64,000 bases of DNA from Psilocybe cubensis. Lineage: Eukaryota. The translations under genes were made by a program, and so were the position numbers. Where the stretch lies: assembly GCA_017499595.2 (NCBI GenBank), contig CM039008.1, positions 682,001 to 746,000 of the forward strand, read 5' to 3'. The notes beneath the pieces are model-generated. The model made no database searches. It saw only the letters and a program-made list of their open reading frames with translations, and had not been told where the DNA came from. Shown piece after piece: positions 2,619 to 36,829 of the stretch (within the stretch, counting starts at the first letter, position 1; the number at the start of each line of letters is the position of its first letter).

Positions 2619-4123
2619 AGTCAAACAATTGTTCAAGTGGGCACGCTTGTGGGCTTGGATGAGCTGGAAGTCTGGGGAAATGGAGAGGGAACAGTTAAGA
2701 CACGGTACTCGCTCCCTGTATGACGATAGTTACGCTTGGTTATAAGTACACGGATGTTGTACTAGACTTTAAATATTCCTATATGTTTTCTAGTGAGCAG
2801 CGAAATGGAGTTTAAGTGGTTGACTCATGATAGGTTCTTTATCGATGGGATCAATCTTTTGTGCATAGACATCTTTGCGAAGCAGGGATAATGAGTCAAG
2901 GGACCGAGGCGTCAACGAAAAGGAGTTAAATCTTGACACTCCTCGTTATTCTTGGTGAGAATACCTAGTGCAATTAAGGAAATAATCTGCTATGTATTTT
3001 TATAGATCTTCAGCGCGGCCTGGAAGACGCTCATGGATGGGAAGAAGAACCTGTAGATCAGGGTCGAAGATGAACTTTTTGGAACTATCTTCGGCGGCCA
3101 GCCACTCACACACCACCTCGAGGTTTGAAGTTGCGTCAAGGCATTTTTTTTTTCTGTTCTCGGACCTGCATTATATGTAAACACGAGGTTGAATATTAAG
3201 CACTTACTAGGATCCTCGGGGCTTTCGCTCCTGTCAGACTATCATCGGAGTGCATCCACAAGCAACCCACAAGTAAAAAATAGAACTTGAACCTGAATCT
3301 AAGGCTCCAACCATTTAGTTTCCGTTTAAAAAATATTATAAAATAAACGGAAAGGGTAGGAAACTGTTTACAAACCGTTTACAAATGTTTGTAAACGGTA
3401 CAGAATGTCACAGCCAGTCACGCGGCATCTGAATTGGTGTCGAGAGTATATTTTTATAGCAAATAAAGGACAGTAGACTACGCAAGTTGTCGCAAGACAC
3501 GGTCAAAAATACCGGCTCTAATCCACATCTTTGAGAGCAAAGACTCAGTGATAGTTTGAGCTTTCAACATCAACTAAACAGACAGTAGATTACAAAGCAA
3601 TGTAAACCAATACAATAAATTTTTTGTCTTACAAATGCACCCAAATTTCGGGGCCCGGTTTACAATGTTAAGTAATATTTTTATTAGCTTTACAATATCC
3701 AAACAATTATTTGTTTTACCCTGCAAAATCAAGTAAGAATTTTCGTATGTTTACGACAAGTCCGGTTGACCGGCCATTACATAACCGGTCGACATAGGGG
3801 CCGAATGTCTTGCCCCGGCGCGTGTATTAAATATAACATACGATCGCTCATTTGAAGTTTCACACACGGTAAGCGTTGTATTTCCATACGTATACATCAA
3901 ATAAACACGCTAATCCGTTAAAAAATCGTCGATATCGAGCTCATCGTCGACGACGATGACCAAAACGGGCGTGGAAAAGCGCGCCGCAGTCGTCAACGAT
4001 GGCGGCGCGCTTCTTTTTTTCAACACCATCACCACCACCACCACCACCACCACCACCACCAAACCCGCCACAGCGCGCCAGCAACTCGTCACCGTCATAT
4101 AACGAGATCACCGAAGACTGGAA

Positions 4124-4510
4124 ATGGATGAGAATGGTGAGTCTTCAATATTAAAAGCATGAACTAACTGTTAATTTTTTTTTGCACTCCCAGGAGTACA
4201 ATTCGGCCTCGCGATCGATCGCGACGGCCTCAGGCTCAACGTCGCCGTCGATGGCCGCAACGGGCACGCAAAAATCAGCGTCAACGTCGATACCGACAAC
4301 AAGGTCGAGATCCTTGTCAGCGTAGAAGAGCCCGCGACCGGGCGAGTCGACACCGAACCCGTCGTTTCGACCCACGGCGAAATTCGAGAGCGGGAGGAAC
4401 AGGTTGTCGCAGTCAAAAATCGTATCGAGGACTCGGGGACCGTCGAAGACAGCGACGTCGAGATGCGCGATGGGGAGGGGGATGATCAGGACGTTGAGAT
4501 GATGGAATAA
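4124..4510 (+). CDS. Small acidic hypothetical protein (2 exons), element cargo
   Basis: ATG GAT GAG AAT G|GTGAGT...CAG|GA GTA gives MDENGVQFGLAIDRDGLRLNVAVDG...DVEMME*; canonical GT-AG intron. Confidence 0.4.
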
Positions 4511-4649
4511 AGGGCCCGTTCGACAGGCACTCTGAGTTTACCGTGACGCGTGTACAATGAAATCAAGTTTTATTTTTCAAAACACATCCATGTGAGATTT
4601 ATATACCCCTCCCTCCCCGTATCGACGCCTCTTTGTATCTGGACGAACA

Positions 4650-5134
4650 CGCACACGCGTGGCGCGCGCATACGCAACACACGCGTGGCGCGCGCATCAA
4701 ACGCGTGGCGCGCGCATACGCAGCACACGCGTGGCGCGCGCATACGCAACACACGCGTGGCGCGCGCATACGCAACACACGCGTGGCGCACGCATACGCA
4801 ACACACGCGTGGCGCGCGCATACGCATCACACGCGTGGCGCGCGCATCAAACGCGTGGCGCGCGCATCACACGCGTGGCGCGCGCATCAAACGCGTGGCG
4901 CGCGCATCAAACGCGTGGCGCGCGCATACGCAACACACGCGTGGCGCACGCATACGCCTCAAACGCGTGGCGCACGCATACGCCTCAAACGCGTGGCGCG
5001 CGCATACGCAACACACGCGTGGCGCGCGCATACGCAACACACGCGTGGCGCACGCATACGCCTCAAACGCGTGGCGCGCGCATACGCAGCACACGCGTGG
5101 CGCACGCATACGCAGCACACGCGTGGCGCGCGCC
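4650..5134. repeat. CpG-rich minisatellite, ~20 units of ACGCGTGGCG(C/A)CGCAT-type core with 3- or 9-bp linkers (20/26-bp periods)
   Basis: Read directly from the sequence. Confidence 0.95.
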
Positions 5135-5498
5135 AGGCACGTCCAGGTCGAAATAGGCTGCGGAACTGGGTTGGGGGCGATGCTTGGTGCTGTCCTTATC
5201 GCTGAAATATAAGGGCGGTATCGTGTCGGGCTGCAGCTAAGGTGGTGTATGAGGGTTGATGTGAGGGGGGTAAGGCACACATACGTAGTTGCACAATGAG
5301 AGAGTAGAGCCCAAAGGGCGTACAGCGATGTATAGGGATGTTACAATAAAATTTCAGTTAAATATCAATACATTTCCTTACCGAATCACGCGAAAATCAA
5401 GAAAAGTATTGTGTATTACTCGCCAAGACAAGGATACACCTAAAAAGGTGTTAGTAGAGGTACAAGAGAATCAACGACAGACTCACATAAAGCTACAG

Positions 5499-8400
5499 TT
5501 AGTATTCAGCGAACCCGAGTTCATCGAGGTCACCCCGGTCCTCATCCTCGTCGCTTTCCTCCTCCTCCTCCTCCTCCTCTTCAGAATCGGTATGCTGGTC
5601 GCTGTCGTCTTCATTGTCATCAGAATCGGCGCTGTTTTCAGGTGCCACTTCAGCCTGGTCCTGAGCGTCTTGCTCCTGGTCTGAGGCCCCATCTGGTTCC
5701 AGATCAGGATCGGGAGCTTCATGTGCCTCGCGGCGTTTTTTGCGAGAGGCAATGTCATCTGCACGTCGGTCTTGCCTAAGAGAATCGGTAGCGGCTCGCG
5801 TGCTAGCGTGGCCAACTCCACCCCCTCTGTACAGCATGACCATGTCGCGATCCACAAAACTGTAAAAAATTAGTAAAGGGTAAGAAGTGACTAAATGTAC
5901 TCACAAATTGACATAATATCTCTCCCATTCTTCCCCTTCATTATTTTCTTTGCTTCTATAAGCTACAGATGGGCCGAGAGTCGGTATTTTTCCAAGAATG
6001 AAGCGAGGGATCAAATGGGTTGCACGAATTACGAGGGATGGGTCCACAAAACCAAACGACGCAGAGTCATTGATATCACCAAACGCCAACTGTGGAAGCC
6101 TTCTATATTTCCAACCGTAATGGCAATCTTCACAAACACCCAGCCATCGGACATGAAGAAAATCCACTTTGTGCTTGGAGGCACGGTAGTAATCATCAGG
6201 GGTAGATATTACCACATTGGCGTGGTAGATTCCAATGATACGGGCATACCAATAAGGATGAACCTGCTGATCTGCACCTTTGTTGCTAGCGAGTACCATG
6301 ATGTCACATCGGGAAGAGTTTGGCTTCAAGGTATCTTGTATTCGACGCATATCATACGAAGTATAGTTGATGCGTAGAACCTGATGTTCGTAAATTCGGT
6401 CACCGAGTATTGTGATTTGGAGTCGCTCATGGGTACCAATGCTATCACTGAATTCGTTTACCCCTGATAAGCGGGCATAAAGGTGAGTTTTGAGACGAAG
6501 CATAAAGTCCTAAATACGACATTGAGTATATAAAAACAAGCGAAAAATCCGGCTTACCCTTGTCGCCGGATCGTTTTGGTTTTGTGACATCCAGGGTAGT
6601 ATATCTAACTTTCGACGCACGTCTGATGAGATGTGATAATGTAAATCAGGAGGAGTGGGCTCCAGTAACTCCCTGTCCTCACGCAGCAGCTTGCGTATCT
6701 CGACACGGTTAGTGCGGTGTACCACACGTTCTCGGTAGATGTGTTTGGCGATACCTCGAATATGATCACCTTTCTTGACCCGTTTGTAGAAGAGTTTCGC
6801 TCTCTTGTGCTCGCTTTCGCCCATCTGAGTGCTCGTGCCGTCAGTGGTGCCAAATTGGCGAATGGAATCGACGTAATCGGGAAGGGAATGCAATTTGTAC
6901 GTTTGCATATTGAACGTGCGGGTCTTGGGTTCATTGGGTTGAGTCGGAGGGTACTGGCAGACCCGCACTCGCTGCCTTTTTGGCCTTGGCTGCCTGTCTT
7001 CTTCCTCTCGCGGCTGTTTCTGATGGAAGCTCGCGAGTGGCGTACTGACTACAAACCTCCTTTTGGAACTGACGAAGGAGATCACATAACCGAGTACACG
7101 AATTCCCCAACTCGTCCAGAGTGGTATCGGTGTGAAGTCGAAGCTTGGCTAGGGCGTGCCATGTCGCCATTTCAAACAAGAGGTTTTGAATAATTTTATT
7201 GTGTGCAGGTTCTGGCAACAAGCCCTCAAAGACTGGTATAGAGCACTATTATGGAATCATTAATAATTAAAATCAAACATCACACGCAATTGAGGCTACC
7301 TGAAGGAGATCTTCAAAATCCCGTGCTGCCAGTTTCTTCATATCTGAAGCATTCCTAGCAAAACGTCGGATAGTTGTGAGGCCGAAAGGGGAGACTTGGC
7401 GGTATCTAAATCTATAGTTAGTTTGAGTAAGAATCGAGATATCACGACAATACCTTTCGTTCAGAGTTGCAATGGCGTTCTGGTTGCTAGAGGTATAAAG
7501 AATCCGGAGTAGGTGACTAAATAGGGCCTTCCAGACACCCAGTTCCACTTCGTGCATGAAGTCGACAGTAAACATCCGATAAAAGTTGAAGCCATATTCA
7601 AATAAAGCCTTGGAAAAAGCGTTCTATGTAATATTCTTAGACAAAATACGTAGATATGAGGAAATAAAAATATACCCGAGTTGGAAAAGCAGAGGTCTGT
7701 TGCAGCAAGCCATTAACCGCCTTGCTGTTAACCTTTTTCCCCAAGAACAATGCTTTACGGGCAGTTTCGATGTCAAATTGACGAGTTTCGCTGTCAACGC
7801 GAGCTAGCTTGAGCCGGTTTCGCATATCCATCTTTGATCCAACCTTTGGGACATTCATAGTTTGAATTAAACAACGTGGACACAAGCAAGTGCCGCGACA
7901 CTTGCAGCAGGACTGCAGCATTCTGCTTGTACATTAGTTATCAAACGAAATAACGAGTAAATGTTGACTTACTTTTCGGGGTAGTCATTTGAACTAAAAA
8001 TAAAACGGAGATACATAGCTCGACATACTCTGTCGGCCAGTTCTACGGCCTCTCCTTCAGCATACGCTCGTTTGACATCCTCATCAAGTAATAGCCCCCA
8101 GACGCCAGTATTGACCTCGCGTCTCATATGGGTGAGCATTTCAGATGTCGCAGCTTTGCCAAACTGTCGCTGATGCCAATCTTGAAAAGTGTCTGTGAGC
8201 TATGACCCAAACGTTAATATGAATAGTACATGCCAGTCAATACAAACTTACTTTAGGGATATACGCAATATGGTGCGCAGCAAATTCTTTAGGTTTCCCT
8301 CTGGTGTATTTTGACTGGTTGAGGATATACATAAGGATCGGCCATATAGAAGCATCGCCAAAACTGGTCAGGTGGGTAGAATCTGAAAAAATCCCGATAC

Positions 8401-9661
8401 CAACGACAAAGGGCTCCAGGTGTCTGTGGGGACCTGTGCGTGGCTCTGACTTGATCTTTTCATACTCTTCATTGAAAATGTCCGCCACGTAGGACTCTGA
8501 GAATAAGCGTTCGGGTGGTTCGTCGGGTGAGGGACGCCAAAATTCTCTGTACGGTATGGTCGTATACGTCTCAGAGGTGCATTCTGCAAAGGCCTGTTTG
8601 ATAACTTCTAGAGGTTTTCGATACATGACGTTTTCAACAACAAATTGAGGAGCCTCCTCTTCCGAATCGAATATGAAACCGTCGCATGGCACTGGTATTG
8701 AAAAGCTGCCCTTGATCCACCCAGCTTCCGGTCGACACACTTCTGACAAAGTAGGATCTGTAGAATTTTTTTGGGTGGAGATTTCGTCCAGACGCGCTGC
8801 CTCTCGAGCAGTAGAAAAGGAGGAATCAAAGTCCTTGGGGTCAAAATCCGGGTCCAGTACGACTTGGTGAATCAATTTGTCGGTATCAGCGTAGGATTTA
8901 GTACCGTGGCCGTTGTAAAACCAAGACATGATAAGTTGAGTAGAACGATTTTTGAATAGCAAGCTCTTGTCGTCTTTTGGCTCAGAATCCAAGGACCAAT
9001 CCGAAGGTAGGGCCATTGGTGTTCCCTCTGACGCCTTTCTCAAAGAGTCGGCTGGGTCTTTGGCAATATTTGGAGAATCGGACACTGATGACAGTGTGAA
9101 ATGTTCGTCAGGAGTAATAGAAGGGGGACCATAGGTATACTCTCGAAATATCCCATAGCCATTCATTGGTGTTCGATACAGACTCTCCACAGATGGAGGT
9201 TCCTGAGGCTGAGGTGGTTCCTCCTCCACGACTGGTGGTATAATTAGAGGAGGTTCGGGTGGGACCTCGTCTCGGAAGCGCTGTGGCAATCTAATAACGC
9301 GTGGAGGAAGTCCTCTGGGCCGTTCAATGGGAGGTGGTGGTGTCGGGGGATGTGGTGGTGGTGTTGGTGATTTAGGTGGAGGCGCAGGGGGCATTGGAGG
9401 TGGTACCATATCCACATCGAGATACTCATGATGGACATCAACGTCCATAGGCCCGGGCTCATTATTCAGGGTTGCCTGGTGCGAAGAACCACTGGCAACA
9501 TTACTGTTCTGATTCTGCCTGCTGAAGTTTTCCTGGAACCCCTTCAGGACCTTGCTCATTGCAGCAGGATATTTTTTACATTTGTTGGTATGCTGCTTCA
9601 AGGAGCGACCTGGTACGAAGAGTTTATGGCACCCTAAGCAGGGTCTTTTTTCGTCGGACAT
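5499..9661 (-). CDS. Plavaka-family transposase (multi-exon)
   Basis: N-terminal CxxC..H (MSDEKRPCLGCHKLF); FSDSTHLTSFGDASIWP, NQSKYTRGKP, CLCPRCL, DFMHEVELGVWK, YKLHSLPDY, STQMGESEH, HPYWYARIIGIYH, and C-terminal DRDMVMLYRGGGVGH, all typical of fungal Plavaka transposases; GT-AG introns. Confidence 0.85.
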
Positions 9662-9684
9662 AATTACGGCCTGCTGAAGTACAA

Positions 9685-9980
9685 CTATCCACGCAATGAG
9701 CCTGGATAGGGAGTAGAAAATCCTTGCCCAAGCAATGAGCCTGGGCAGAGTAACGATACCCTTATCCCAGCAATGAGCCTGGATAGGGGGGATATCCTTG
9801 CCCAAGCAATGAGCCTGGGCAGGCGAACGACACCCTTATCCCAGCAATGAGCCTGGATAGGGGGTAGAAAATCCTTGTCCTAGCAATGAGCCTGGACAGT
9901 GGATAGGAAGCTCTTATCCCGGCAATGAGCCTGGATAGCGAGCCACCGATTCGTTCTGACCCGAGCAATGAGCCTGGGTA
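9685..9980. repeat. Array of 8 imperfect palindromic GCAATGAGCCTGG units with variable linkers
   Basis: Cores at 9693, 9732, 9770, 9806, 9844, 9883, 9922, 9965; lies immediately upstream of the transposase ATG. Confidence 0.9.
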
Positions 9981-10312
9981 GAGCGAATAAGGAGAGTGCA
10001 GACATCAACCTCAGGCGTGATAGGGCGCGGTGTCGGAGTTCAAAACTTAGCGGAGTTTTGATTGGCCTAACCGGCTTACTGTAAGCAATCTCATGTTTTT
10101 TTTATGTTTTTTGGGCTCAGAATTGATTCACACATGTTTCGATGCAGGTCCAAACAATTTTTTCCGTGGTATACATGATATCTGACCAATAGTTTGTACG
10201 AAGAAATATAGATAGTATACATAAAATTTGTTTTGTAGTATGTACGAAGGCAAAAATAGACTGTGAGTAGTGGTGTAGATCCGTGAATGAAGAAACAAGA
10301 AAAATGTGCTAC

Positions 10313-13300
10313 CTATCTACGAGGATTCCTGGTTACGGGGATATGTTCATGGACAAATGCCGCTGATCGAGCTCGCACCGATTCCCTTAGAACACGGACT
10401 GGCTTATTTTTGAGAAGGCTCTTCCAGTCTTGAAGCGTTAAAGGTTGCGCTTTGCCATTTCGAATTAATTCCAGCCTAGTCTGGTACCAGTACTCGTTGC
10501 GTTCAGTCCATTCCAGCCATCCTATCCCATTCCTGTCGATTTCATTCCATACCGCCGGGGGAGGAAACCAAGACTTGACTCCGACCTGATTTTTAAAATC
10601 TAAAAACAACATTAAATAGAGCGATCAGTTAAATGTAGTGAACACTTACCCGTCATGAGAGAATACGACCCGATAATAATCGCAATATCGTGTTCTGTAA
10701 GCCCGTCATCGCAGTAAGCCAGCAACTCGGCCTCTGGATTAGCGACATATCCGCGTCCATTTCTCAGCAATTCCACTGATGGGCCCTGGAGAACAGACTC
10801 TGTGCTCAGATACTCTTTGGCGATTCGTCCTACTATTCCACCCATGAGTAGCGCTGCACGACCGCGTTGTTGGTCCAGTATCTGCCGACAGGCCAGCATC
10901 GAGGACTCATAGTCGTCGTTGGTAAACTTGTAGCTGACTTTGCGGTAAAAGGTAACTTCCTTGTAGGGTTGATGCACCTGAACCACATTTTTACGCCCGA
11001 CAAGAGTTCGAAACTGCACTCCTTTGGACAAAAGTCTGTGTGCCACACTGACAACTGTATGCCCAGGATGGGACTGGAAGACTCGTAAGACATATAAAGC
11101 AGCCTCTGGGGTTTCGACTCCAATACTCCAATCAGCAGACATTCTGTCGGACTCTTCCTGAGGTGCACGTATGTCGTGATGAGCGAAAACAAATAGATTT
11201 GGGATGGGCCGATGGATGAGGCTGAGATTCCCTAAAACTTGAAGGGATAGGTAATTTTGCGGGTGGAGATCGTGAATGTCTTGAGGGAGCGGACGGTCAG
11301 TTGACCCCATCAAACCGTCATGAAACTGACAGATGAGTTGACGATCCGTGTTTGAGACAAACTGTTCTGCCCCATCCTTCCTAAACCCAAAGTGTTGACA
11401 GGCGTGTTTCCAGCCTTCCGGTGTCTTATCCTCCTTCTTCGGGACTACAGAGGCTACGAATCCATAGCTGTATCGCAAGTTGGAGATGAGGTCGGCGGTG
11501 TCCCAATCGTAATCGTGGATTTTCGAAGCTTCATCAGTGTCGGTATCCATGGTGGAGGGGCCCGGCTCTGGACGATGTACCGGAGGCTGGGAAGGCCCCT
11601 CCTGAAATTCCTCCGTGTCCATGGGGAATGTTTCGTACTGAGGTTCATGAGGGGAAGTCGCACCACCCGAGGAAGAGTCTACACAGGGTTCTGGGATGAC
11701 GGGAACGGATTCCACACGGGGTACATCGTTGTCGGGGATGATGGACTGGGGATTGATGCGGGCGGCTTGGATAGGATAGTCGTAGATATAACCGTCCTTC
11801 CTAGGAGGGGGGTCCACAAATTGCAGATATTTTCGTGGCAAATCCACTTCATCAAAAATGTCCCACTCGTTTGAGACTGCATTGTATGTTCGTTGAGAGG
11901 GAGGCACCTTTGCGAACAGTCTCTCGTGCTTTGATCGAAGGAGGCGAACTCGCATGTATAATTCCTTCCCCCCCGGCGTCGTGACACTTTTCCACCTATA
12001 GACCGATGTGTTGTACCCCGGGAGGGCCTCCTCTCTTTGAAGCCTTTTGATCTTTGCGTCCTCGGTCTCAGTCGCAATGATAAAGCGCTGGTTTCTCTCG
12101 CGTTTCTCCAAGAATATCGAGACGTGGTCGTACAACTCTCCTCTCCGGTGGTAGTCACCTTTGTCCATCCAATCGTGAGTGGGGAGATTTGCTATGGCTC
12201 GCTCGGCCTCTGCGAGGTCCATGTCCATGGCTCGGCTTACTATCTCCCTCAATTCTGCAACCGTGGCCTCCACCTGGTTCTCCTCCATAGCCGCCTTGAC
12301 CTTGTCGGTTTGCGAGGCAAATTTTTCATACATATATTTCGTGACCAACGACGTACTGTGTTCCATTCTCAATATATGTTTGGTGGAGTGCAGCGGGCGA
12401 TCATGAAATCGAAAGTAGGACCTAAGGATTAGGCCAGCGAGAGGAACACTGGGGAATCGGTTCAGAAACTTCTCAAGGGCATCCCAAACAAGGTTTGCAG
12501 GAGGCTCAAGATAGCGAAGGGTGGGGTTGTTTATGATGGCCTGTTCTGCGATGGCACACCACGGAAAGAAAACAGGAATCTGCTGGTCCAGGAAGAACTG
12601 TATCTCGGGCCTCCGATTGTCATATTCATACCAGGGAATAACTATCCCTGCACGCTGAGTGTCGGGTGAGAATACACACGCTGGCGATGTTAAAAGCCCG
12701 TCCAACCAGGATCGCTGTAGCATCGGAACCTCCTCGAGCAGCCTGGTATACCATCGGGGTAGTAACTCGCCCTGTTCTCTCACCATCTTTCCTGCACAAT
12801 ACTTGTCATACTTTGCACACGCAGCGAAATATGCAAAGAATCCCATCCATACGGCAAACCAATCTCGCGCCAATTTAATCTGGCGATAAGCTTCTTCTTT
12901 CGATGTGTAGGGCTCATCGTATTTAAAGATGGAAGGCGGGGGTGGTTGACTGGCTGGTACGTGGTACCATAGCTTCATTTTGTGCGCAGCTTCCAGTAAA
13001 CATTGTTCCTTAAACCGCCAATGCTTTATAGTATGAATTTCGAGCTGGTAGAGAGTGGGACCGGGTGGAGTATTATAGCTAGGAGTTACATCCAGCTCAG
13101 GCTGCCAGGTAAAGGTGTCGAAGGGGTCGGAGATAAAGGATGGGTTGAGCGGTATGAAGGACATCCACCCAAAGGTGTCTGTCCACCAGACAGGATGCTT
13201 GACAGAGGTGGGATCTGGCTCTGCACGTTCGGGGAATGGGTGGGGGTGATTCCGCTCTGGGGCCTTGATACGGACTGGTCGGTTACAATTGGGAGAGTAG

Positions 13301-13422: not shown

Positions 13423-13465
13423 TATGGACAGTCGGGGGAGCAGGAATTCCAATTTATCTGTGCGT

Positions 13466-22895: not shown

Positions 22896-22939
22896 GAATT
22901 CAACGAGATGGGATACAACAAGAATGTTCAAAGAACTGG

Positions 22940-25900: not shown

Positions 25901-26862
25901 GTGCACAATTGCCTTGAAAGGAATTCCATTGTTGTCTGCTGCCTTTGGACGAGGTTGGTCCAGATAGGTTGTATCGACTTCCTCGAATAGATCATCATCT
26001 TCATCGTCTCCATCGTCCAGCTCAACCAAATGGGGTACCTCCGGGTCCGCCAGAAGCTGAGCCGTAAAGGATTCTTGGTCATTGCTCGCAGGAAGCGGAT
26101 CCAGGTCCAATCCGTGTTCATCCTCAAAGATGGGCGAATTGTTTCCGCCGTGCCCATGACTCCCGGATGAATTGTTTCCGCCGTCGCATCCTAGATGGCT
26201 CGGATCCGTGGGATAAGGACACCGCTTCCCATTATGACCCAAATACAACTTGACACCCACTTCCCACAGAGCTCCCGGACGGAAATATAGACCCGTCCAC
26301 TTCTCAACGCGGTGGAAAGGTGTAAATTGATGGTTTCTTCGCAGGCATTCAGAACACAAAATTCTAGAGCCAAAGCATTGGCAACATCTCCACACTCCAG
26401 ACATTCCTTGACATTGCTGACACCGTCCATTCAGATCCGGATCCGGGGCTTCTCCTCCAATCATTGTTCCAAGATACACCTCTCGTTTCGGGAGCCATTC
26501 CCTCAGGTAATCATTTTGAGACTGGATAGGTAAAGTCATCCTGATCATTCTACTGAAAACATGTTAAAACATACCTTTCCTCCCGTTCTGTCGTCATCTA
26601 GCTGTCTCAGGTTATCAAGTACCTGCTGATCAGTTAGATCTCCCGGATAATGAGGTATTTCTTCTTCCAGAATGTTGTGTTCATGGTTTTGGAAAGAGTA
26701 AGTCGTTGTTTGAGGGAGGTTTGTTGATGATGATTCTGCAGGAAGTTTGTGGATCCTCGGCCGCCCTCTCTTTCGTTTCTTGGCCCCACTAGACCAGGAG
26801 GCCTCCCGAACATTGGGAAACTCCTCATCCGATCCCCTATCAGGTACTTTCTTGAAGCCCAT
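22940..26862 (-). CDS. CxC2-domain KDZ transposase (multi-exon)
   Basis: CQQC..WRCCQC..CSEC..H..PFHRVEKWTG, VHTSGVH..CTC, CPACPQPGINL, DGNFK, ACARHGCF, DFDKGEKQ, YDINCQY, FHVHGH, DGEILE.LWS, LDDHMGDSNWKK, RARAQRNRWQEE. Confidence 0.92.
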
Positions 26863-27741
26863 GGATGTTGGAAACAAAGAGTCTGACAGCCTGTGAGCGC
26901 AGATCTAAATGTAGTATAACATGTTTATTTCTGTAGATAAATTTCCCTCAATTATGCCGTTTTAAAGAGGAGAAAAATAGCTTTCATATGATCTATCTTG
27001 CAGCATATTTGGATGAGTGAGTGAAATGTTATGAACAAAACTTAATCCAGAGATGCACAAAATGGACGTGATCCCATCATAAATGTACAATATGATGCAG
27101 AACGACCCTTTCAGAACCACACTTTGGAGTGTTTTTGAAATATCTTTTCACTGGCTGGCCCCTCATTCCTCCGGCGTATATCATATGAAAGATATTTTTA
27201 ATAGCTACCGAATGACATTTTTTGTAGAATGTGAATCCTCGTATTTAAGGAGATATTCTCAATATACTAGAAAATGTGTCAAAATGAGCTCACTGGGATC
27301 ATTATATTTTTTGAAAAAAATTATGCATTTGAATACCTCTCATGGTCTCTGAGATGACTGCCGTTTTGGGTTTCACAAGTTTTGGGTGAGAAGACGTGAA
27401 TTTGAATTTTGTGTTTCTGTATCTTTACAGCCATCTAACAAGAATTTAAAACCTTGTAAGATTATCTTTATATAAAGCGCTAAATGTTTACAAAATTTCA
27501 TGTTTATTGATTGAGTGCAGAGGGAACTATTGCAAAATCATGAGGTCAATGTATGTGACAGCGACCAGCATGCTTTGATCATCGTGGCCGACGATGAAGC
27601 GGGATTACCTGATTGGGAAAAATATGACATCACATCATTCATTTAGTATGATCGGAAGCTTATTTTATCTCCGTATGACGTGAGATTTGACTAGATCACA
27701 CAGATACTCATCGATAAGCTACTTGTTACATCGCTGCAATT

Positions 27742-30052
27742 ATGCCCACCATTGCATCCCCCGACGCGGATCCGCTTCCTTCCACCGCAAATGCCACAAC
27801 CCACAACGGACCCAGAAGCGGACAGACGGCGGAGGGTGACTTTCCGCCGGAAGAATCAAATATATGGACCACAAAGGAAATGCGCGTGTTGAAAAAGCAT
27901 GTACAGCCCTACAAAGATACATCAAAGTCATCCAAAGCAGACTACATACAGAACACTGTCATACCTGAGCTGCAAGCTACATGGGATCACAGATACTCTA
28001 GACGTGCTAGGAAGGAAGATAAGCAACTACACAAAGAATGGAAGGTGAAGAAGCATGTGAGCTCGTTGTTTCTTTGAAAATTTTGTTACACACATAAACC
28101 ATCACAATAGCGAATTTTTAATTGGTTTAGAAACCATGCGTCAAATCGAATTGGTGTAAAATTGGAAGGATTGAACTCCCGTATAACCTTTCAGACGGTA
28201 TTCCGTGAGGAGAAGTCGGCAGAGATTGACTCCGAGGTTGCGCTTCTATCAGGGAATGCTGCTCGTGGAAGTAAAGATTGGATGAAGTTTTATCAACAAG
28301 GACGTAAGCAGGTTGAGGCCAGATTGACTCAGGAGGAGCGGGACAGGTTCATGGAGATCCTCGAGGAATGGAATAAGAAAGGTGTTTCAAAATCAATGAA
28401 GGCAAAGTGAGTCGGTGGAACTTGTTTCCGCCGTCAATCTGACATCTGCAGGACTGCTGCCAGGCAAGGCAGAAAAATACTTCGACAAATGGAGAAACTT
28501 AAGTGGCAGAGAATGGGTATGAGGTCCATTACCTTTGAGGGGCATTATGATATTGAGGGTAAAATCGAATACTCAATGTAAGTGTTAAACACGGCATGAA
28601 CAAGTTCCGCCGTGAATGCTTACGGCGGAAACTTTATCCGCCGTAAACACCCTACGGCGGATAAAGTTTCCGCCGTAAGCATTCACGGCGGAATAATTTG
28701 GCCCGTATTAATGTTGACTGATGGGCATTGAAGGACCCAGACAAGCGATCTAGCACTCGACGATGTCAGAATTCCTTCCTTTGGGCAACTCTTTCCATCC
28801 GAGTTGGCCGCTTTTCGCAGAGCGTTTGTTCAATACCTCGTCCACATTTCAGAAATAGAGAAGGGTGTGGCCAATCCAGCACTGCCAGATGCATCGTTTC
28901 ATGAAAAATCCCTCAAGTTTAGCAGCAATGGATTTCCAATAGTACCTAGTCCTATCTATGGCTCAACTGGGAGAGAAGTCGCTTATGCGCAAAAGTCAAT
29001 TATTAGAATTTACATGAACAAGGTTTATGGTGTGTAATTTGTCTATGTCCTCAACAAACTTGCTAACTATGTATACAGCTTTAGCCAAGGATAGGCCTGG
29101 TTCAAGTGTTCCTTGGGATGCTCTTGAAAGGCGTTCTGCAGAAATGATTGATCCAGAGTATTGGCCAAGTTCAATCCCCGTGACGGATCCGAGCCGGCTC
29201 CGCCTGGAGTCAACTTCTGCAATTCTCAAGCTATGGAGGGACCGTCAAGCGCAAGGAGACATCCCCTTTAAATTCTCAAAGGTTTTTGGAAATGGCTATG
29301 ACATTATGGAACCTCTCTATCCGTCCAACTTGTTTGACGGCCTAGAAGCCCACCCGATACCTCCACCTCCTGCAGCCATAACCAAACGTCGGCTGAGGCA
29401 AAAAGCTATACGACTTCAAACCCAATCTTCAAGCGACTCTGAATCATCCAATCTGTCAGAGTTTGATAATGGACGGGGTAGTCCGGCATCCGCGATGCCA
29501 CGCACTACTGCCAGATTTGAAGTCACGCCAGAGACGGATGAGACTCCTACCGACGCACCTTCAAGATCTAGCGAGCCACCCTCTCTACCAAGTAGATCCA
29601 GCCCAACAATTGTCAATCCATCATCCAGCCCAACTCCAGAGGTTGAGGAGGCGCCTCCCAAGCCAGCTAGAAAGATTATGCCAAGAAAAAGAACAAAGCC
29701 ATATGTCGGAACGGCGGAAATGGACGGACCCGATGAAGAGAGTTCTGTACCCCCCCCAGTTAAGCCAAAACCAACTAGAAGGATTCAACCTAGGAAAAGA
29801 ACAAAGCCCTACTCAGATCCACTTAACACAGTGGAAGAAGATGGAGTCCAAACAGGAACAACCCAAGACACGGATAATACACGGGCCGGCAGGGACGTGA
29901 CTTGTGATGCCTTTGTGGAGACAGTAACAAGTCCAGATACGGATGAAACACGGGCCCGCAGGAATGTGACTTCGGATGCCTTAGCACTTCAGGAAGCAAG
30001 TCTGCTTGCTGTAGCAGGTAAAGGACAAAGAAAAAAAACTTTGAAAGCCTAG
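27742..30052 (+). CDS. Multi-exon KDZ cargo protein (helical, possibly HMG-like N-terminal region; Ser/Pro-rich basic tail)
   Basis: ORFs 27742-28077, 28162-28410, 28804-29037 and 29027-30052 linked by GT-AG introns; domain call tentative. Confidence 0.6.
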
Positions 30053-30330
30053 CTGTTGAAGTAGATTCATGATACCTATTGAATGTGATGCTTTTTATTC
30101 TTATCTTGATGTTTCTCAAACATGTTTTCACACAAAATCAAAACAGAAAGCGGGGTTCATTAAAAATCATCAAGTGCTACTTTTTGGGAGAGGTATAAAA
30201 CAGATGAGCACATGAGAGTAAAAACTATATACAGTCCAAATGATGAAAAAATTGTATAGGGATGTGAGCAATGTAATATATGACAGGCAAAAAAGGAGAC
30301 CAAAAAAAAGTTACAAAGAATTGAAATACA

Positions 30331-32895
30331 CTACTTTTTTTGGGCCTTGGATTTTTTGGGCGAGCGCGATGCTTCAGCCAGAGTCGTTTCCGCCTTTCGC
30401 TTTCGTCCAGCCCTTGTCTTTGTGGCTATGTTCGACGCGGGCAGCGTGGACGCCACGATCTCAACATCCTCCTCCTCCACAATTTCAACCTCGTCGCTGT
30501 CCGAGGGATCAGACAACTCCGATGAGTGTCCATTCCCGGATGGCCCAGCCTTGGAGGATGGCTTAGCCTTTGACAATGGCTTAGCCTTTGAGGATGGGCC
30601 GGCCTTTGACGATGGCGCGGCCTTTGACGATGGTGCACCCTTTGACAACGGTGCGGCCTTTGACGTCGAACTTCGAGGACGTGGAGCTGGGAGAGGGGGT
30701 GGTGGAGACAGGGAAAGGATGGGCGGTACCGGTGGGAGCGAGGGTCGGCCAGCTGGGGGGGGCGAAGGCGCTTCCGGAGTCGAACCGGGCAAGAATAGCG
30801 CTGTTGGTGGCGCAGACACGGCAGGGAGGACGGGTGCGGGTGGAGGTGGGGGAGGGGAAGGGAGGACAGGTGCTGGCGGTGGTGGAGGAGGGGAAGGGAG
30901 AATGGGTGCTGCTGGAGGTGGAGGTGGGGAAGGGAGGGGTGCTGGCGGTGGTGGTGCGCTTGGGGATTGTGGCACAGAGGTGGGTTCACGGGTCCGCGAC
31001 GGACCCGATTCTTGTTCGACCTCCGTCTTGGAGGGTCCTGCTGCCTGTTTGGGGGCGGGATTCCTTTGTTCATCCTGCTCCAGCAAATCGTCGACCACAT
31101 CTCGGACGTGGTTGATCCTCTTGGTGATGTCGTTGAACATCGTGACGGAAAGCGAGGTGCTTCCTGCCACTTGTTCTTTGGCCATGGTCCATTCGGCCTT
31201 CACCTCTTGGATGCCGTCCTCGATGCTCTTCATCCTGTTCTCCACCGCCAAGTTTGTCTCGGCAAACGTCGCAATCCGTGCATTAATCGCCGTCATGGAC
31301 GCGGATAACCCGTCCAGCCGTTCCATGATTCTGCCTTGGCGCTCAAAGAGCTGCACAAGCAGTTCTCCCACATCCTCGGGGAACGACCCTTCCCCGGCCT
31401 TCCCCTTCGCCGGAACATCTTCTCCCTCCTCCAACTTCAACGCCTCCCCATAGCTTCCCAGTGGCGTCGTCAAAAATTGACCCACGAAGGTGTTGCGCCC
31501 CGGGTAGAAGCTGCAGTGGATCTTGCGAGACTTGCAAGACTCGCAAGATTGGTGCTTCACGGGGACGAGAGGCTCAGTGCCTGTCTCCCCCTTGACATAG
31601 CATGGCACCTTGAATTTGATGCATGCCGTGCACCTTTCCACCATGTCCACCATCCCCTCTGGCACCTGGCGCACTTTCTGGGATCTCGACCGCGCCTTCC
31701 TGATGGGGGGGACATCGTCCTCGGTGTCCTTCTTTACGGAACGCGTGCGCATCTTCCGGGTGGGGGTGGCAGTGGGGGTGGTAGGCGGTGCCCCTTTGTT
31801 ATCGCCTTCGTCGTCCTCGTCGACGTCCGCGTCCGCGTCTTCGTCCGTGTGGCTTCCTATGATCGCCTTGCTCCTGAATTTCCCCTGCTTGGACTTCGCC
31901 AATCTTTCCAGCTTCTCCCTGTACGCTGGGTGACCGGGCATGTTGGAGGCGGTAATGTGGGGAATAATTTCCCCCTTCTTTGTCCGTGGGCCCCTGTAAT
32001 CCGCTGGAGCCAACTGAATGGACTCCACGGGGTCCGCCGCTTTCCGTTTGCCCTTGTCTTTGTGGGCGTCTGTCACGGGTCCGTCTTCCACCGGGGGTTC
32101 GACTGCCTTGCCCTTGCCCTTCTCGGCCCGTCTCTTCTCCGTCTCCTCCTTGTTCCTCTCCTCGTCTGTCTCCTGCTCCTGCTCCTGCTCCTGCTCCCTC
32201 TTCCTCCTCTCCTCCGCCTTCTGCCTCTCCTGCTCCCTGGTCCTCCTCTCCTGCTCCCTCTTCCTCCTCTCATCCTTTCTCCTCTCCTCCACCTTCTGCT
32301 TCTCTTCCTCCCTCTTCCTCCTCTCCTCCTCCCTCTGCCTCTCCTCCTCCTCCTCCCTCTCCTCTTCCTCCTCCCTCTTCTTCTTCTCCTCCCTCTTCCT
32401 CCTCACCTCCCTCTTCCTCCTCTCCTCCACCCTCTGCCTCTCCTCCTCCTCTTGCTCCTCCTTCTCCCTCCTCTTCTCTTGCTCCTCCTCCTCCCTCCTC
32501 TTCCTCTGTGCCTCCTGGCCTTCCTGGTAGGCCTTGAAGTTGGCGACTTGATGTTTGAGCGTCGCCCAGTCGACCTCAAACCTGTAGATGTTCTCGCCGT
32601 CCTTGCCCTGGATGACTTTGTACGAGTAGACAACGGGGCTCGCAACATAGTCAATGAGCCGGAAGCGTGCGGCGTCCCTGACATGCTCCTGACACAATGG
32701 AACCTATTGGAATTTTTTTTTTTTTGTTGAGCAAGTCATGATCTTATAAAATTGAGAACTTACCAAGTCCCTGTAAAGCTGCTCCAACTCAGCGTTGAAC
32801 GCGCTTTCACCGTTGCGGTAGCACTCGGTAAACTTTTTTTCCCAGTCAGCGAGGCGTTGGGCGAAGGTGGCGGTGGTGGAAGATGAAGCGGCCAT
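30331..32895 (-). CDS. Coiled-coil + Zn2Cys6-like cluster + Pro-rich protein (KDZ cargo)
   Basis: Exon 1 MAASSS... plus a 788-aa ORF; Glu/Arg/Lys-rich coiled coil; CTACIKFKVPC-x16-CESCKSRKIHC; basic NLS-like C-terminus. Confidence 0.75.
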
Positions 32896-33380
32896 TGAAA
32901 AAAGCGTGTTTTTATGGGGGAAGACGCGTTAAAGTGGTGAGGCACGGTAGAACGTGAGGGTGGTGATCGTGGTTGGAGTTAGTCTAAAAAAAGTCTAAAA
33001 AAAAGCGGTCCCGCAAAACAAAACCATACACAAACATGTACAATCTGAGTCATGTGATTTCTTCACCAGATCCAGTTTGTGCAAAAGTTGCTAAGTTCGA
33101 TACACGGGTGAATCTATTTCCGTGTCATGGAGAATCCTCGGATAGTATTGTATTCCGTGAGATATATAAACAAGCCCACCCAGTTGCACTTTCTGGACTG
33201 TATGTCCTCCTACAACTTTATTCCCACCTCTAGCAAAAATTCCCCCATTGACTACACCAGTCTCAACAATCTTACCAGGCTTCTTGAAAAACTGAAGGAA
33301 CCTCCTCCCGTAAAACCTATAAAATGTAAGACTAATGGCATTAATTCAAGTAAATTTTAATTGATTTCTGAGCATCAGCA

Positions 33381-34559
33381 ATGTCTTCAAATATTAGCAA
33401 CTCTAAGGAAAGCAAACGCACAGCAAGGACGGATGACCTGGCTCCGCCGCCAATGCCAGTCATTCCAGATAACCTGGCTCCACCCCCTATGCCTGTTATT
33501 CCAGATAACCTGGCTCCTCCCCCTATGCCAGTCATTTCATCTAACCTGGCTCCGCCCCCTATGCCAGTCATCCGGAAAGACCTGGCTCCGCCGCCAATGC
33601 CAGTAATTCCAGCTAACCTGGCTCCACCCCCTATGCCTGTTATTCCAGCTAACCTGGCTCCGCCCCCTATGCCAGTCATCCGGAAAGACCTGGCTCCGCC
33701 GCCAATGCCAGTAATTCCAGCTAGCCTGGCTCCACCCCCTATGCCAGTCATTCCAGCTAACCTGGCTCCGCCGCCAATGCCAGTCATCCGGAATGACACG
33801 GCTCCGCCGCCAATGCCTGTCATCCGGAACGACACGGCTCCGCCGCCAATGCCTGTCATCCGGAACGACACGGCTCCGCCGCCAATGCCAATCATTCCAG
33901 ATAACCTAGCTCCTCCCCCTATGCCTGTCATTCCACCTACCCTGGCTCCTCCCCCTATGCCTGTTATTCCAGATACCCTGGATCCTCCACCTATGCCTGT
34001 CATCCGGGATGATGTGGCTCCGCCGTTGATGGCAGCACATGTTTCATACACGTCTGTCGTCGACAAAATCATTATGGACTCTCGTCCAGCTATTTCCTCT
34101 GAGAGGAAGCAAGGTCGCTATTCTCCACCCCCTGAAGCATGCCACCTGCTCCTTCAAAACCCTTATTTTCGAACCTACGGCAGGTTTGATCCCATGGGCG
34201 GCTACCCCGGTTCGCCTCCCACCCAGTCTGACATTGAGTTCGAGGATGTGACAGATCAGACGGCATATTTTAACCCTCCTTTTCTATATGTATGCACTCA
34301 GATATTACCAAGCACTAGATACTGACAACTATTTTAGAATTATACCGAGCAGCAGCTACGGGCAACATACGACCAAATAATCGACAGTTCCGTCGGCGAC
34401 AATAGTTATGACAGCAAGGTCACAACGTTTAAGAACCTCCGCCTGCATCAGCTGCAGTCAGAAATTCTGACTTATAATGCGCTGGAGGAAATTGACGCTG
34501 GGCTGGCAGGGATTGAATCGAGTTTGGAAAAGCATTTGTATACCGGTAGAGATGAATAA
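33381..34559 (+). CDS. Repeat protein with ~16 (L/T)APPPMPVI-type 12-aa repeats (KDZ cargo)
   Basis: 36-bp coding tandem repeat at 33435-34030; intron ~34289-34338; last exon ends ...YTGRDE*. Confidence 0.7.
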
Positions 34560-34637
34560 ATTATTTTTGGAGCCCTTGTGCTCATTGATTCGCAATACCT
34601 CTCAAATATCCCTCCCTCTCTGGGAAGATACGGGTCA

Positions 34638-34955
34638 AATGGGTCCGTCTGACAGCACAACACGGGTCAAGCGGATCCGTCTGCTTGCAATACACGGGAT
34701 GCAAATGGACCCGTCCGGCTCATTTCCGGCCCGTGTTTCTTCCGTGTAGGTAGACGCGCGGATCCCGCAGGCCACCCGGCGGCTCCATTTAGCGCTAAAT
34801 GGCACGTCATGTACGCTATGATTTGCCAGGCTAAATCACACGTACATCACGCTAATCTCCTAATTAGGTAGCGGGAGTAAATCCACCGTATGTCACGTAA
34901 TATCCTTATTATTAAATCTTAGGTAATGTACGTTATAAATAAACTGTCTTATGTG
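34638..34955 (-). repeat. Right TIR of the KDZ element (318 bp)
   Basis: Reverse complement of 19321-19638. Confidence 0.95.
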
Positions 34956-36829
34956 GGTACAGTTAGGTCAAGGTTAGAATGTTTTTTAAGGTGAGTTGCT
35001 AAATTTCCGAGTGCTGGCTTTGGATGCTCATCGTCGAAACTCTTTTCTTTGTCCACAGTCCGTGGAACTGTTACTGACCTAATTTTTATGCAGAGCTGAG
35101 TAACGCGACTAATTTTATGATTGATTAAGTCACTTACTTTTTGCAGTGCCTACACGAAAACTCCCATCGATGAACTCCTTGTACTACAACGGGTACCGGA
35201 TTTCTAAAATGGGCTCGACTATAGTTTGCAGGGCCCTTTTTGTTGTATTTGACTTCTGTTTCTAATGCCTCAGGTACGTCGTCAACATCAATGACCTTAA
35301 TCTTTGCAGATTTGGCTGCGCTTGCTGATTTCTTTGCTTTTTTGTACGACGGGCCCTATTACAGTAAATATTCAATAGTAAGTTAACTTATACTTCTTAT
35401 ATTTCAATGTCTTACCTTGTTAACCTGTTCTCCTTCACTTTCTGTATCAGATACTACTCGCTGGCGCTTTTTTGGGTCATTCTTGCTATCATCAACTTCA
35501 AGCCCGTCCTTATCGAGGGTATATGACAAAATTGAATCTTCGGATGACTCACGCTCCATATTTCGGCGTGGTTTAAATGTAGCGTCATCCTCAGAATTGA
35601 TGTCGGTACACTCTCCATCTAATACAAGGTATTTAGATCTTTTATTCAGGGCTAGACGTGAGTTTAATGTGACATTACCTTTGCTAGGAAGGCTCCGAAG
35701 GTCACGTACAGCACCATTGATTAGATCCTGAGTTATTCCACTCATTTTTTTTGCCTTCTTTTTGGTTTTTGGTACCGGCTTTGTCTTTGCATTGTTATAG
35801 ACTCCTGTTTTCTTAGGAGGAAGTTTTCTAACCAATAGTAAGTACATATTAGATTGAATATAAATGTAGATATTAGTTACGCACGTAAGATATTTGAGCT
35901 CATCAAGTATCCGTTCCAGCTTCATCCCAACAAGGTCAAGGGGAATGTCGGAGACTTCCCAGTTTATTTTGCCTATATACACACAGAGATTTTCCATTCC
36001 AAGCTTTCCACGACGGATATAATGAAAGCGACCGTGCTCATCTCGACAGTCTGCATCTTCTTTAAATAGAATGTCCGTGACACGATTAAATGTCTCAAAG
36101 ATGGCTGAACCCTGACTTTCGATAGGAGCAGTAGGTATTGCAGTATAGATTTTATCGTGCCGTGTAGCCACTGGTATATTGTCCGGAAGCGACGATGAGA
36201 GAAGAGTCAAGGATTTGACAACTTTCTGAATGTGCAAATGCGTAACACGATTGCCAGGCAGAGGTGCTGACATGTCAATGTATGTGGTAGAATTTTCTGG
36301 CTTACTCTTGCAGCCTGCAACGTTGCCAACTCTCAGAAATCACATTTCAGTGAATTTTCTCCGGTTCTTACAGTAACCGCTGTCCCGCAACATTGGAAAT
36401 TGTGTTTTACTAATGCTTATTGGACAATTGAGTTGCTCAGATCAATCCTGGAATAGGGACCGTGTAAACTGTTTGTAAACGGTTTGTATACTGTTTGGCA
36501 TGAAGTACAAAATAAACTAAACAGTAAATGGAATAAACAGTTTGTAAACGATAAACAAACTAAACGATTGGAGCCTTACCTGAATCCAAATATGGATGAT
36601 CAGTAAACAACCCTGAACATGTGCCACCGTGAGAATCAAGTGAGGTGTTGTTTGTTTGGTTCAGGCAAATTAGAATGTGATAAGCTTGCAGTGGCGCTAC
36701 GCAGTGTTGACAATGCTGTGAGGACATCATACTGAGCAGAGAGATGGGCTGAAGAGGGTTTTGCGCGCAAAGCAGCAGAAACGCCCGAAAACCGCAACGG
36801 CTGCTTCCACATTTGGCAAAAACCAACAT

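What the first reader, a model, noticed from the sequence alone, without database searches (positions are those of the whole stretch)
3292..36586. Nested locus: two large transposons of different superfamilies both inserted into one hAT transposase ORF
Three sets of TIRs/TSDs (8, 2 and 7 bp) are all readable. Removing 13,474+2 and 15,635+7 bp leaves a ~4.16-kb hAT with in-frame junctions, so the hAT is older than both inserts. Its own TIRs are still intact, so a trans-acting hAT transposase could in principle move a 33-kb composite carrying TET and ~10 genes (inference).
Basis: partly seen in the sequence, partly recalled or inferred. Interest (0 to 1): 0.7.

Follow-up and report, generated by a model that had tools for sequence, protein, structure and literature searches.

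The report
Mushroom transposon hit twice by giants
A 4-kb jumping gene in a mushroom genome was recently broken by two much larger, already described kinds of jumping gene landing inside it; the nest is real but has not moved as a unit, and such nesting is common in this genome.

Summary
Confirmed to the base. A hAT element (3300-36578, 8-bp TSD) holds a PlavakaB element (3568-17041, 2-bp TSD) and a TET-carrying Kyakuja/KDZ element (19321-34955, 318-bp TIRs, 7-bp TSD). Removing both leaves 4,161 bp that match an uninterrupted copy on another contig at 99.3% without gaps and encode a 1,048-aa transposase. The locus differs between samples: one run has the empty site, three lack this copy's alleles or junction forks. 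The 33-kb composite is single-copy, so there is no sign that it moved, although its ends, a likely helper copy and 15 clean 453-bp derivatives exist. TET-less long Plavaka copies nest as often (4 of 9), which favours survival of large insertions in dispensable DNA over targeting. Both inserts are known kinds (Kojima 2025; the Plavaka end matches a published family). The scan already noted this Kyakuja family and other nests elsewhere in this genome. Side find: a conserved AT-AC intron in the hAT transposase.

The parts
3292..3299 (.). hAT target-site duplication, left copy (CCTGAATC)
   Evidence: identical to 36579-36586; empty site in run X7
3300..3567 (-). hAT 3' end: last ~29 transposase codons, subterminal region and TIR
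   Evidence: positions 1-268 of the 4,161-bp element; matches C12 copy
3568..17041 (-). Insert A: PlavakaB DNA transposon, 13,474 bp, CATCA..TGATG ends, 2-bp TSD AA, no TET gene found
   Evidence: PF18759 E 6.4e-11; its right end, reverse-complemented, reads as the start of PlavakaB-1_PsiCub in the supplement of PMC12730594; 25 matches to this end in the genome, 9 of them long copies
5486..9835 (-). Plavaka transposase gene (several exons; bounds approximate)
   Evidence: PF18759 on 8240-9835; downstream ORFs read
10094..13374 (-). second Plavaka gene, 920-aa ORF, no Pfam family
   Evidence: 97.7% identical in the C9 Plavaka copy
14316..16702 (+). third Plavaka gene (several exons, weak DUF6698 below cut-off; bounds approximate)
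17042..19320 (-). hAT middle piece: catalytic core exons (D, D, CxxH, RW, E motifs, dimerisation region); starts with second AA copy, ends with left copy of the 7-bp TSD
   Evidence: PF05699 E 1.3e-10; gene model
18673..18732 (-). predicted 60-bp AT-AC intron in the hAT transposase, just before the second catalytic Asp
   Evidence: not tested with RNA
19321..34955 (+). Insert B: TET-carrying Kyakuja (KDZ) transposon, 15,635 bp, 318-bp perfect TIRs (19321-19638, 34638-34955), 7-bp TSD GGTACAG
   Evidence: 23 paired copies and 4 single ends; 22 of 23 with exact 7-bp TSD
19695..21040 (+). TET/JBP dioxygenase gene, AG type, HxD motif in HRDNGSCYSWYD (5' bound approximate)
   Evidence: PF12851 E 3.1e-19; CcTET 7VPN E 7.8e-27
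22943..26904 (-). KDZ transposase gene with CxC2 cluster (several exons; bounds approximate)
   Evidence: PF18758 E 1e-37, PF18803 E 1.4e-21
21274..22927 (-). Kyakuja cargo gene, no Pfam family (bounds approximate)
   Evidence: ORFs; no family
27718..30049 (+). Kyakuja cargo gene, no Pfam family (bounds approximate)
   Evidence: ORFs
30334..32928 (-). Kyakuja cargo gene with coiled-coil, Cys cluster and Pro-rich tail, no Pfam family
   Evidence: 790-aa ORF; no family
33112..34556 (+). Kyakuja cargo gene with 12-aa Pro-rich tandem repeat (bounds approximate)
34956..36578 (-). hAT 5' piece: right copy of the 7-bp TSD, BED finger and N-terminal exons, subterminal region and TIR
36579..36586 (.). 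hAT target-site duplication, right copy (CCTGAATC)

Best explanation
Three recently active cut-and-paste families collided at one spot. An intact 4,161-bp autonomous hAT inserted about 0.7 kb upstream of one copy of a tandemly duplicated host gene (shown: TSD, empty site). A PlavakaB and a TET-carrying Kyakuja then inserted independently into its transposase gene (shown: TSDs, uninterrupted sister copy), most likely Plavaka first and Kyakuja last (inferred, weak). The Kyakuja cuts the BED finger from the catalytic core, so this hAT copy is dead in cis (shown from the gene model). The 33-kb composite has stayed where it was built (shown for this assembly). Large elements pile up inside other transposons here mainly because those are places where a 13-16 kb insertion destroys nothing the fungus needs, so they survive while hits in genes are lost (inferred).
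For: Rejoined element equals the C12 copy, 99.3%, 0 gaps. Model with 9 introns gives 1,048 aa without a stop in both, 47% identical over 1,056 columns to a Tricholomella hAT protein. Uninterrupted form at the B site in 4 of 4 runs; X14 has the non-window allele in 86 of 86 and 90 of 90 reads at two sites; X7 has a contig joining the left flank to 36578. A paralogous flank in the window is also uninterrupted. Nearest copies differ by 0.12-0.13% for B, 0.5-0.6% for A, 0.67% for the hAT. No second composite: 39 hAT TIR ends resolve into 15 short elements, 3 full copies, one diverged relative and one single end; 23 of 23 paired B copies have distinct flanks. For survival rather than targeting: no target consensus at 22 sites; TET-less long Plavaka copies nest as often as B (4 of 9 vs 11 of 23, p 1.0) while short Plavaka derivatives (1-3 of 16) and hAT derivatives (0 of 15) rarely do; B also sits in single-copy DNA (2 of 3 unassigned sites searched); 11 of 23 is compatible with transposons being 30-40% of tolerated DNA (p 0.055 and 0.29); Cryptococcus KDZ elements insert into ordinary host genes (PMC11343200, PMC12810828, passages).
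Against: Two of 23 B insertions fall in a 3-copy, 12.5-kb hAT family: chance 2e-5 genome-wide, 8e-4 if only 15% of the genome is open (not corrected for the many families that could have been hit twice). Several other hosts are also rare, with open reading frames: 1 copy, 2 copies, or no relative above 77-80%. Transposon Pfam domains lie within 2 kb of 9 of 21 B sites but 1 of 35 control stretches (p 0.0003), a larger excess than selection alone easily gives at the point estimate. The long-versus-short Plavaka contrast is weak (p 0.04 to 0.20, one flank only). Junctions were not seen on long reads.
Confidence: 0.7

Rival explanations
1. Same anatomy and history, but the nesting is driven by target choice: the Kyakuja (and perhaps the Plavaka) integrates preferentially into other transposons, for example by reading CpG-methylated or otherwise silenced chromatin through TET or a cargo protein, a safe-harbour strategy.
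For: 11 of 23 sites inside transposons (9 firm, 2 probable) vs 3 of 35 control midpoints, p 0.001 (0.008 for 9 of 23). Two hits in the 3-copy hAT family, 200 bp apart in the element, opposite orientations. Hosts include rare families. Conserved host domains near only 4 of 21 B sites vs 21 of 35 controls. The host copies bear a methylation-type signature: 52 of 56 private changes in the C9 hAT are C>T, 32 at CpG. CG methylation in Agaricus is reported to be almost restricted to transposons (PMC12730594, discussion).
Against: No sequence consensus. The TET-less Plavaka nests as often, so TET is not needed. Short Plavaka derivatives, presumably moved by the same enzyme, rarely nest. The window hAT itself has few private changes (10). 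About half of B sites are not in recognisable transposons. All sites are survivors, and controls are few (95% interval for 3 of 35: 2-23%).
Confidence: 0.22
2. One reading: the 33-kb unit is a working hAT macro-transposon that a helper transposase moves together with TET and about ten genes.
For: Both TIRs and subterminal regions are intact (268 and 1,616 bp, longer than the 100 and 120 bp the short derivatives share with it). C12 copy has an open model. Maize Ac/Ds ends can move up to 100 kb of nested retrotransposons (PMC3260210, passages).
Against: One copy only; none of 3 other samples shows its alleles or forks. The short derivatives are closer to the diverged C8 family (93%/85%) than to this one (86%/80%), so they do not prove that this family's enzyme is active now. 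The helper needs an AT-AC intron spliced, untested. Kojima reports no transfer of AG-type TET between superfamilies.
Confidence: 0.06
3. Assembly artefact: repeats mis-joined into a false nest.
For: All three parts are multi-copy repeats; no long reads were available; one search lists no piece spanning the whole stretch.
Against: Three exact TSDs of the lengths proper to each family, gap-free rejoining, 10 private alleles spread over the hAT pieces, and graph forks in X1 at 17042 and 19306/19307 where X5 and X7 run straight through.
Confidence: 0.02

Closest known systems
PlavakaB-1_PsiCub, PlavakaB group of the CMCT clade (Kojima 2025, PMC12730594; parts 1-5 of 7 read, supplement searched)
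   Same: CATCA..TGATG ends, 2-bp TSD, Plavaka transposase; the start of the published consensus as shown reads the same as the reverse complement of insert A's right end printed (compared by eye over about 90 bases).
   Different: Only the start of the stored consensus was visible, so whole-length identity was not tested. No TET in this copy.
TET+ Kyakuja families of Agaricomycotina, e.g. Kyakuja-1_LB and -2_LB of Laccaria bicolor (PMC12730594)
   Same: KDZ transposase, 7-bp TSD, CA..TG ends; 11 supplement families also begin CACATA; AG-type TET with Ser and Asp at the CcTET Gly331 and Asp337 positions.
   Different: 318-bp perfect TIRs, whereas the two Laccaria families are described as having none. 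This family's terminus was not found in the stored supplement text (long cells are cut).
Autonomous fungal hAT elements, e.g. MarorhAT-10 of Marasmius oreades (PMC9674265, passages) and hAT proteins of Tricholomella and Mycena
   Same: Short TIRs, 8-bp TSD, few autonomous copies with many short derivatives, BED finger, DDE core, dimerisation region.
   Different: Longer N-terminal region (1,048 aa) and a predicted AT-AC intron; no relation to MarorhAT-10 was tested.
Ds elements with nested insertions and Ac/Ds macrotransposons of maize (PMC3260210, passages); ToxhAT of wheat pathogens (PMC6737239, search listing only)
   Same: hAT ends enclosing large unrelated DNA, including other transposons.
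   Different: Those were shown to move; this composite has one locus, and its cargo is two whole DNA transposons rather than retrotransposons or a host-acting gene.
TET+ hAT7 elements of rust fungi (PMC12730594)
   Same: A TET/JBP gene between hAT ends.
   Different: hAT7 make 7-bp TSDs, carry PU-type TET as a bare gene beside a transposase gene; here TET is inside a whole Kyakuja that destroyed the hAT transposase.

Membership tests
hAT superfamily (outer element) | 8-bp target-site duplication | tested here: met
   window, C9 and C12 copies; 15 of 15 short derivatives
hAT superfamily (outer element) | short terminal inverted repeats | tested here: met
   about 22-bp TIR at 3300 and 36578
hAT superfamily (outer element) | transposase with BED finger, DDE triad, CxxH, RW and C-terminal dimerisation region | tested here: met
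   PF05699; motifs at residues 335-373, 495, 563, 596, 750, 1001-1006 of the model (motif roles recalled)
hAT superfamily (outer element) | autonomous activity of the C12 copy | not testable with these tools
   open model only; no RNA run listed
PlavakaB (insert A) | CATCA..TGATG termini | tested here: met
PlavakaB (insert A) | 2- or 3-bp TSD | tested here: met
   AA, fixed by the empty C12 copy; TA at the C8:79673 and C9:966414 copies; 2 further copies showed no match at the ends I assigned
PlavakaB (insert A) | Plavaka transposase domain | tested here: met
   PF18759 E 6.4e-11, above cut-off
PlavakaB (insert A) | C(2)C and H(3-4)H motifs between second D and E | tested here: inconclusive
   CPRC is present; the segment before GESEHKR reads KLHSLPDY with one His; no alignment to the paper's set
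Kyakuja within KDZ (insert B) | KDZ transposase domain with CxC cluster | tested here: met
   PF18758, PF18803
Kyakuja within KDZ (insert B) | 7-bp TSD (Zisupton and Dileera 8 bp) | tested here: met
   22 of 23 paired copies; rule
Kyakuja within KDZ (insert B) | CA..TG termini | tested here: met
   CACATAAG..CTTATGTG; 11 published families begin CACATA
Kyakuja within KDZ (insert B) | AG-type TET/JBP gene close to CcTET | tested here: met
   PF12851; 7VPN E 7.8e-27 with HxD and distal His aligned
Kyakuja within KDZ (insert B) | no TIRs (as stated for the two Laccaria families only) | tested here: not met
   318-bp perfect TIRs; the paper states this for two families, not as a rule for the group; Cryptococcus KDZ1-3 have 139-241 bp TIRs
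Kyakuja within KDZ (insert B) | placement in the Kyakuja clade of the transposase tree | not tested
   reference transposases were not available as stored sequences
Mobile composite (macro-transposon) | same inner junctions at two loci with different outer TSDs | tested here: not met
   one locus in this assembly; absent from 3 of 4 runs laid
Mobile composite (macro-transposon) | intact cis ends and a helper transposase gene | tested here: met
   (sequence level only)

The most novel reading that the evidence does not exclude
TET-carrying Kyakuja elements actively home in on other transposons, including rare intact ones, and so keep producing composites in which a TET gene sits between the intact ends of another superfamily (two hAT[Kyakuja] units of 33 and 26 kb and one 31-kb Plavaka[Kyakuja] unit in this one genome). 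Internal deletion of such composites would be a concrete route for the unexplained 'passive' transfer of TET genes between transposon superfamilies in fungi.
Probability: 0.2. Interest if true: 0.65.

Novelty: new member of a known kind. Interest (0 to 1): 0.33.

Why it matters
As it stands it is a clean, dated example of three DNA transposon superfamilies active in one mushroom species at the same time, with exact ends and an empty site, useful for annotation but not surprising: nesting is common here. It would matter more if the excess of Kyakuja insertions inside other transposons proves to be target choice, because no target preference is described for this group in the papers I read, and because such nests are a plausible intermediate for TET genes passing between superfamilies, whose mechanism Kojima 2025 leaves open. 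The genome offers the material to test both: 23 young insertions with known sites and a probable helper hAT.

Tried and rejected
Whole-element search for B was not scored; replaced by end searches. A target-site consensus for B: none at 22 sites. CpG depletion as a marker of transposon context: B sites and controls overlap, not used. The idea that the C9 composite is a moved copy of this one: rejected, different site and orientation, no gap at the window's site, and B there is not the nearest relative. I first took the LTR family counted (40 scored of 107 candidates) for the Copia that B hit twice; it is another family, and the right one has 21 copies (note corrected). First gene model had a wrong acceptor at intron 3 and stopped at 342 aa; corrected. 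An alignment used the wrong C8 stretch and is not used. No RNA holder listed and no long-read run listed: no evidence either way on expression or splicing. Paper searches that found nothing: nested + transposon + insertion preference + basidiomycete + methylated (0 papers); AT-AC + intron + transposase + hAT + fungal (0 papers); one search gave 21 general papers, listing only; one search found no transposon survey of this species. The library lacks most subscription papers, and the long cells of the Kojima supplement are cut when stored, so absence of the hAT and Kyakuja families there is not proof that they are undescribed. Look-up of the hAT core among earlier scan findings gave nothing. Eight unassigned B sites were not searched genome-wide and are counted as not in a transposon.


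Full report
Observation. The window is G000:C11:682001-746000 of a 46.6-Mb, 21-contig genome. The outer element runs 3300-36578 between two copies of CCTGAATC and has about 22-bp inverted ends. Insert A is 3568-17041 (13,474 bp), ends CATCA..TGATG, flanked by AA. Insert B is 19321-34955 (15,635 bp), with 318-bp identical inverted ends and GGTACAG on both sides. Taking out both with one TSD copy each leaves 4,161 bp, which aligns without a gap, at 28 mismatches, to an uninterrupted copy on C12. This settles the lengths of both inner TSDs and shows that the hAT was there first.

What the parts are. Pfam finds the hAT dimerisation region, a Plavaka transposase in A, and KDZ, CxC2 and Tet_JBP in B (103 ORFs scanned). 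Kojima 2025 (PMC12730594; parts 1-5 of 7 read, supplement searched) defines PlavakaB by CATCA..TGATG ends with 2-3 bp TSDs and Kyakuja by CA..TG ends with 7-bp TSDs. The supplement holds PlavakaB-1_PsiCub, whose start reads like A's right end; that label, and the text of earlier scan notes, point to Psilocybe cubensis as host. B's TET aligns to CcTET (E 7.8e-27) with the iron-binding motif and with Ser and Asp at the two positions the paper highlights. B differs from the two Laccaria families in having long TIRs. I count about four genes in A and six in B from ORFs, in line with 'about ten'.

The hAT gene. A nine-intron model gives 1,048 aa without a stop in the C12 copy and in the rejoined window copy; it is 47% identical over 1,056 columns to a Tricholomella protein. 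B interrupts it at about residue 379, between the BED finger and the catalytic core; A at about residue 1019, past the last catalytic Glu (roles of the motifs recalled). The window copy is therefore dead in cis. A third copy on C9 has a stop and two broken donors, and 52 of its 56 private changes are C>T, 32 at CpG, against 10 private changes in the window copy and 18 on C12.

Age and polymorphism. Over 10 kb, three of four B copies fetched differ from this one by 0.12-0.13%; the nearest two of five A copies by 0.5-0.6%; the hAT from C12 by 0.67%. These are upper bounds and only weakly suggest the order hAT, A, B. Four runs from four studies were laid on 16750-36749 (4 of 17 listed). All four show the uninterrupted hAT at the B site. 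In X14 the window's private alleles are absent (86 of 86 and 90 of 90 reads carry the other letter). X5 and X7 have contigs of 3,809 and 4,133 bp running through both insertion points, and X7 has a contig joining the left flank to position 36578, the empty site. X1's hAT contig begins at 17042 and ends at 19306, a fork at both points, and X1 also shows the C9-type junction; this is indirect support for the assembly and may be the same strain. No long-read or RNA run was listed. A paralogous flank at about 41983-42248 is also uninterrupted.

Has the composite moved? No sign of it. The family has three full copies. The 39 TIR ends in the genome resolve into 15 elements of 447-453 bp, the three full copies (C12 with a doubled end), one diverged relative on C8 and one single end. 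All 15 short elements have perfect 8-bp TSDs, but they are closer to the C8 relative than to this family. All 23 paired B copies have different flanks, 22 with an exact 7-bp TSD and no target consensus. Movement in trans remains possible: the ends are intact, a helper gene is probable, and Ac/Ds ends can carry 100 kb (PMC3260210, passages).

The C9 hAT copy carries its own B-family insertion, about 200 bp further along and in the opposite orientation: two of three copies were hit independently. I therefore classified all 23 paired B sites. Eleven lie inside another transposon (nine firm: two hAT, four Copia-type, one Gypsy-type, one Plavaka, one TIR element with a weak DDE domain; two probable: a single-copy Tnp21-like ORF and another KDZ element), against 3 of 35 control midpoints taken at round coordinates on C1-C13; p 0.001, or 0.008 for nine. 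By Pfam alone, 9 of the 21 non-hAT sites have a transposon domain within 2 kb against 1 of 35 controls (two of the nine are below the curated cut-off). Of three unassigned sites searched genome-wide, two are single-copy and one is in a gene family; eight were not searched. The four single ends were left out of the count; three of them touch Gypsy-type DNA.

Why? For survival bias: TET-less long Plavaka copies nest as often (4 of 9, two of them probable, one flank only), short Plavaka derivatives seldom (1-3 of 16), short hAT derivatives never (0 of 15); the excess fits if transposons are 30-40% of the DNA where a 15-kb insert is tolerated; Cryptococcus KDZ elements enter host genes (PMC11343200, PMC12810828, passages). 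For targeting: the double hit on a 12.5-kb family (uncorrected p 2e-5 to 8e-4) and several rare hosts with open frames. The numbers do not decide; I put survival first (0.7) and targeting second (0.22). Nesting is not special to this locus: a 6.4-kb LTR element sits inside one B and three A copies, B sits 81 bp inside a Plavaka copy on C9, and earlier scan notes, unchecked, list several other nests in this genome.

Relation to an open question. Kojima finds TET genes passed between superfamilies in rusts without a signature at the borders and names no mechanism, and finds no such transfer for the AG type. Composites like this one are a possible first step, but here the hAT transposase is destroyed and the TET is AG type, so this stays a low-probability reading.

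Side find. The fifth intron of the model (18673-18732, minus strand) has AT..AC ends with a major-spliceosome-like donor (ATGAG) and branch site. The same ends occur in the 70%-diverged C8 family, and two database relatives, one from Mycena, carry an unconserved 17-20 residue insert at this spot that starts with Met or Ile and ends with Tyr, as a retained AT..AC intron would (their DNA was not seen). AT-AC makes up 0.019% of annotated fungal introns (PMC7072748, passages). One search found no paper on it. It is a prediction without RNA.

Verdict. Real, exactly delimited, recent and polymorphic; built from known kinds; not shown to be mobile as a unit. Interest 0.33, carried mostly by the repeated hits and the testable question of target choice.

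Noticed in passing
window 18673-18732 (minus); L016 about 6704-6763; L020 about 5639: Predicted AT-AC intron with a U2-like donor just before the second catalytic Asp of the hAT transposase; same ends in a 70%-diverged family and a matching retained peptide in two database relatives, so probably old and conserved. Could throttle transposase output.
   Followed up: partly
G000:C9:888693-914813 (L022, L023, L018, L019): Second hAT[Kyakuja] composite, 26.1 kb, TSD TACTCAAC; its Kyakuja holds a 6.4-kb LTR element; its hAT is heavily C>T mutated.
   Followed up: yes
G000:C9:966414-997180 (L063, L162, L169, L170): The same Kyakuja family sits 81 bp inside the end of a PlavakaB copy, giving a 30.8-kb unit with TA on both sides; the three Plavaka ORF pieces tested are uninterrupted, but one terminus reads TGAAG.
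   Followed up: partly
L016 8661-8829 (G000:C12:1154660-1154828): The intact hAT copy has a tandem second copy of its 169-bp 3' end, and the 8-bp TSD lies outside the doubled end.
   Followed up: no
L118-L132; L020 3377-7551: Fifteen 447-453 bp hAT derivatives with perfect TSDs, closer to a diverged hAT on C8 whose 5' TIR looks damaged than to the window's family.
   Followed up: partly
G000:C8:79673-109182 (L024-L027): A PlavakaB copy holding an LTR element that itself holds two further LTR elements (repeats of 369, 186 and 451 bp): a three-level nest.
   Followed up: no
window 438-3176 versus 38900-42248: Tandem duplicate of a low-complexity gene region at 80-92% identity; the hAT sits upstream of the copy with the 764-aa open frame, the other copy is in shorter frames and is followed by a short-chain dehydrogenase piece.
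   Followed up: partly
window 28605-28693: 41-bp perfect hairpin inside the Kyakuja; a 63-bp deletion at this spot is frequent in runs X14, X5 and X7.
   Followed up: no
G000:C2:474428 (L038, L039): A Kyakuja copy interrupts a single-copy 542-aa open frame with no Pfam family.
   Followed up: partly
window 4651-5133: Array of short CG-rich repeats near the Plavaka end, variable in length between copies.
   Followed up: no
L133-L134 (G000:C9:1392001-1412000): An older Kyakuja relative (94-96%) with no listed TIR and further insertions; such decayed copies are outside the 23-site count.
   Followed up: partly
window 51712-52352 and 61174-61807; 54577-55685: A 66% inverted repeat pair, and a repeat shared at 88% with control stretch L108; not identified.
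   Followed up: no
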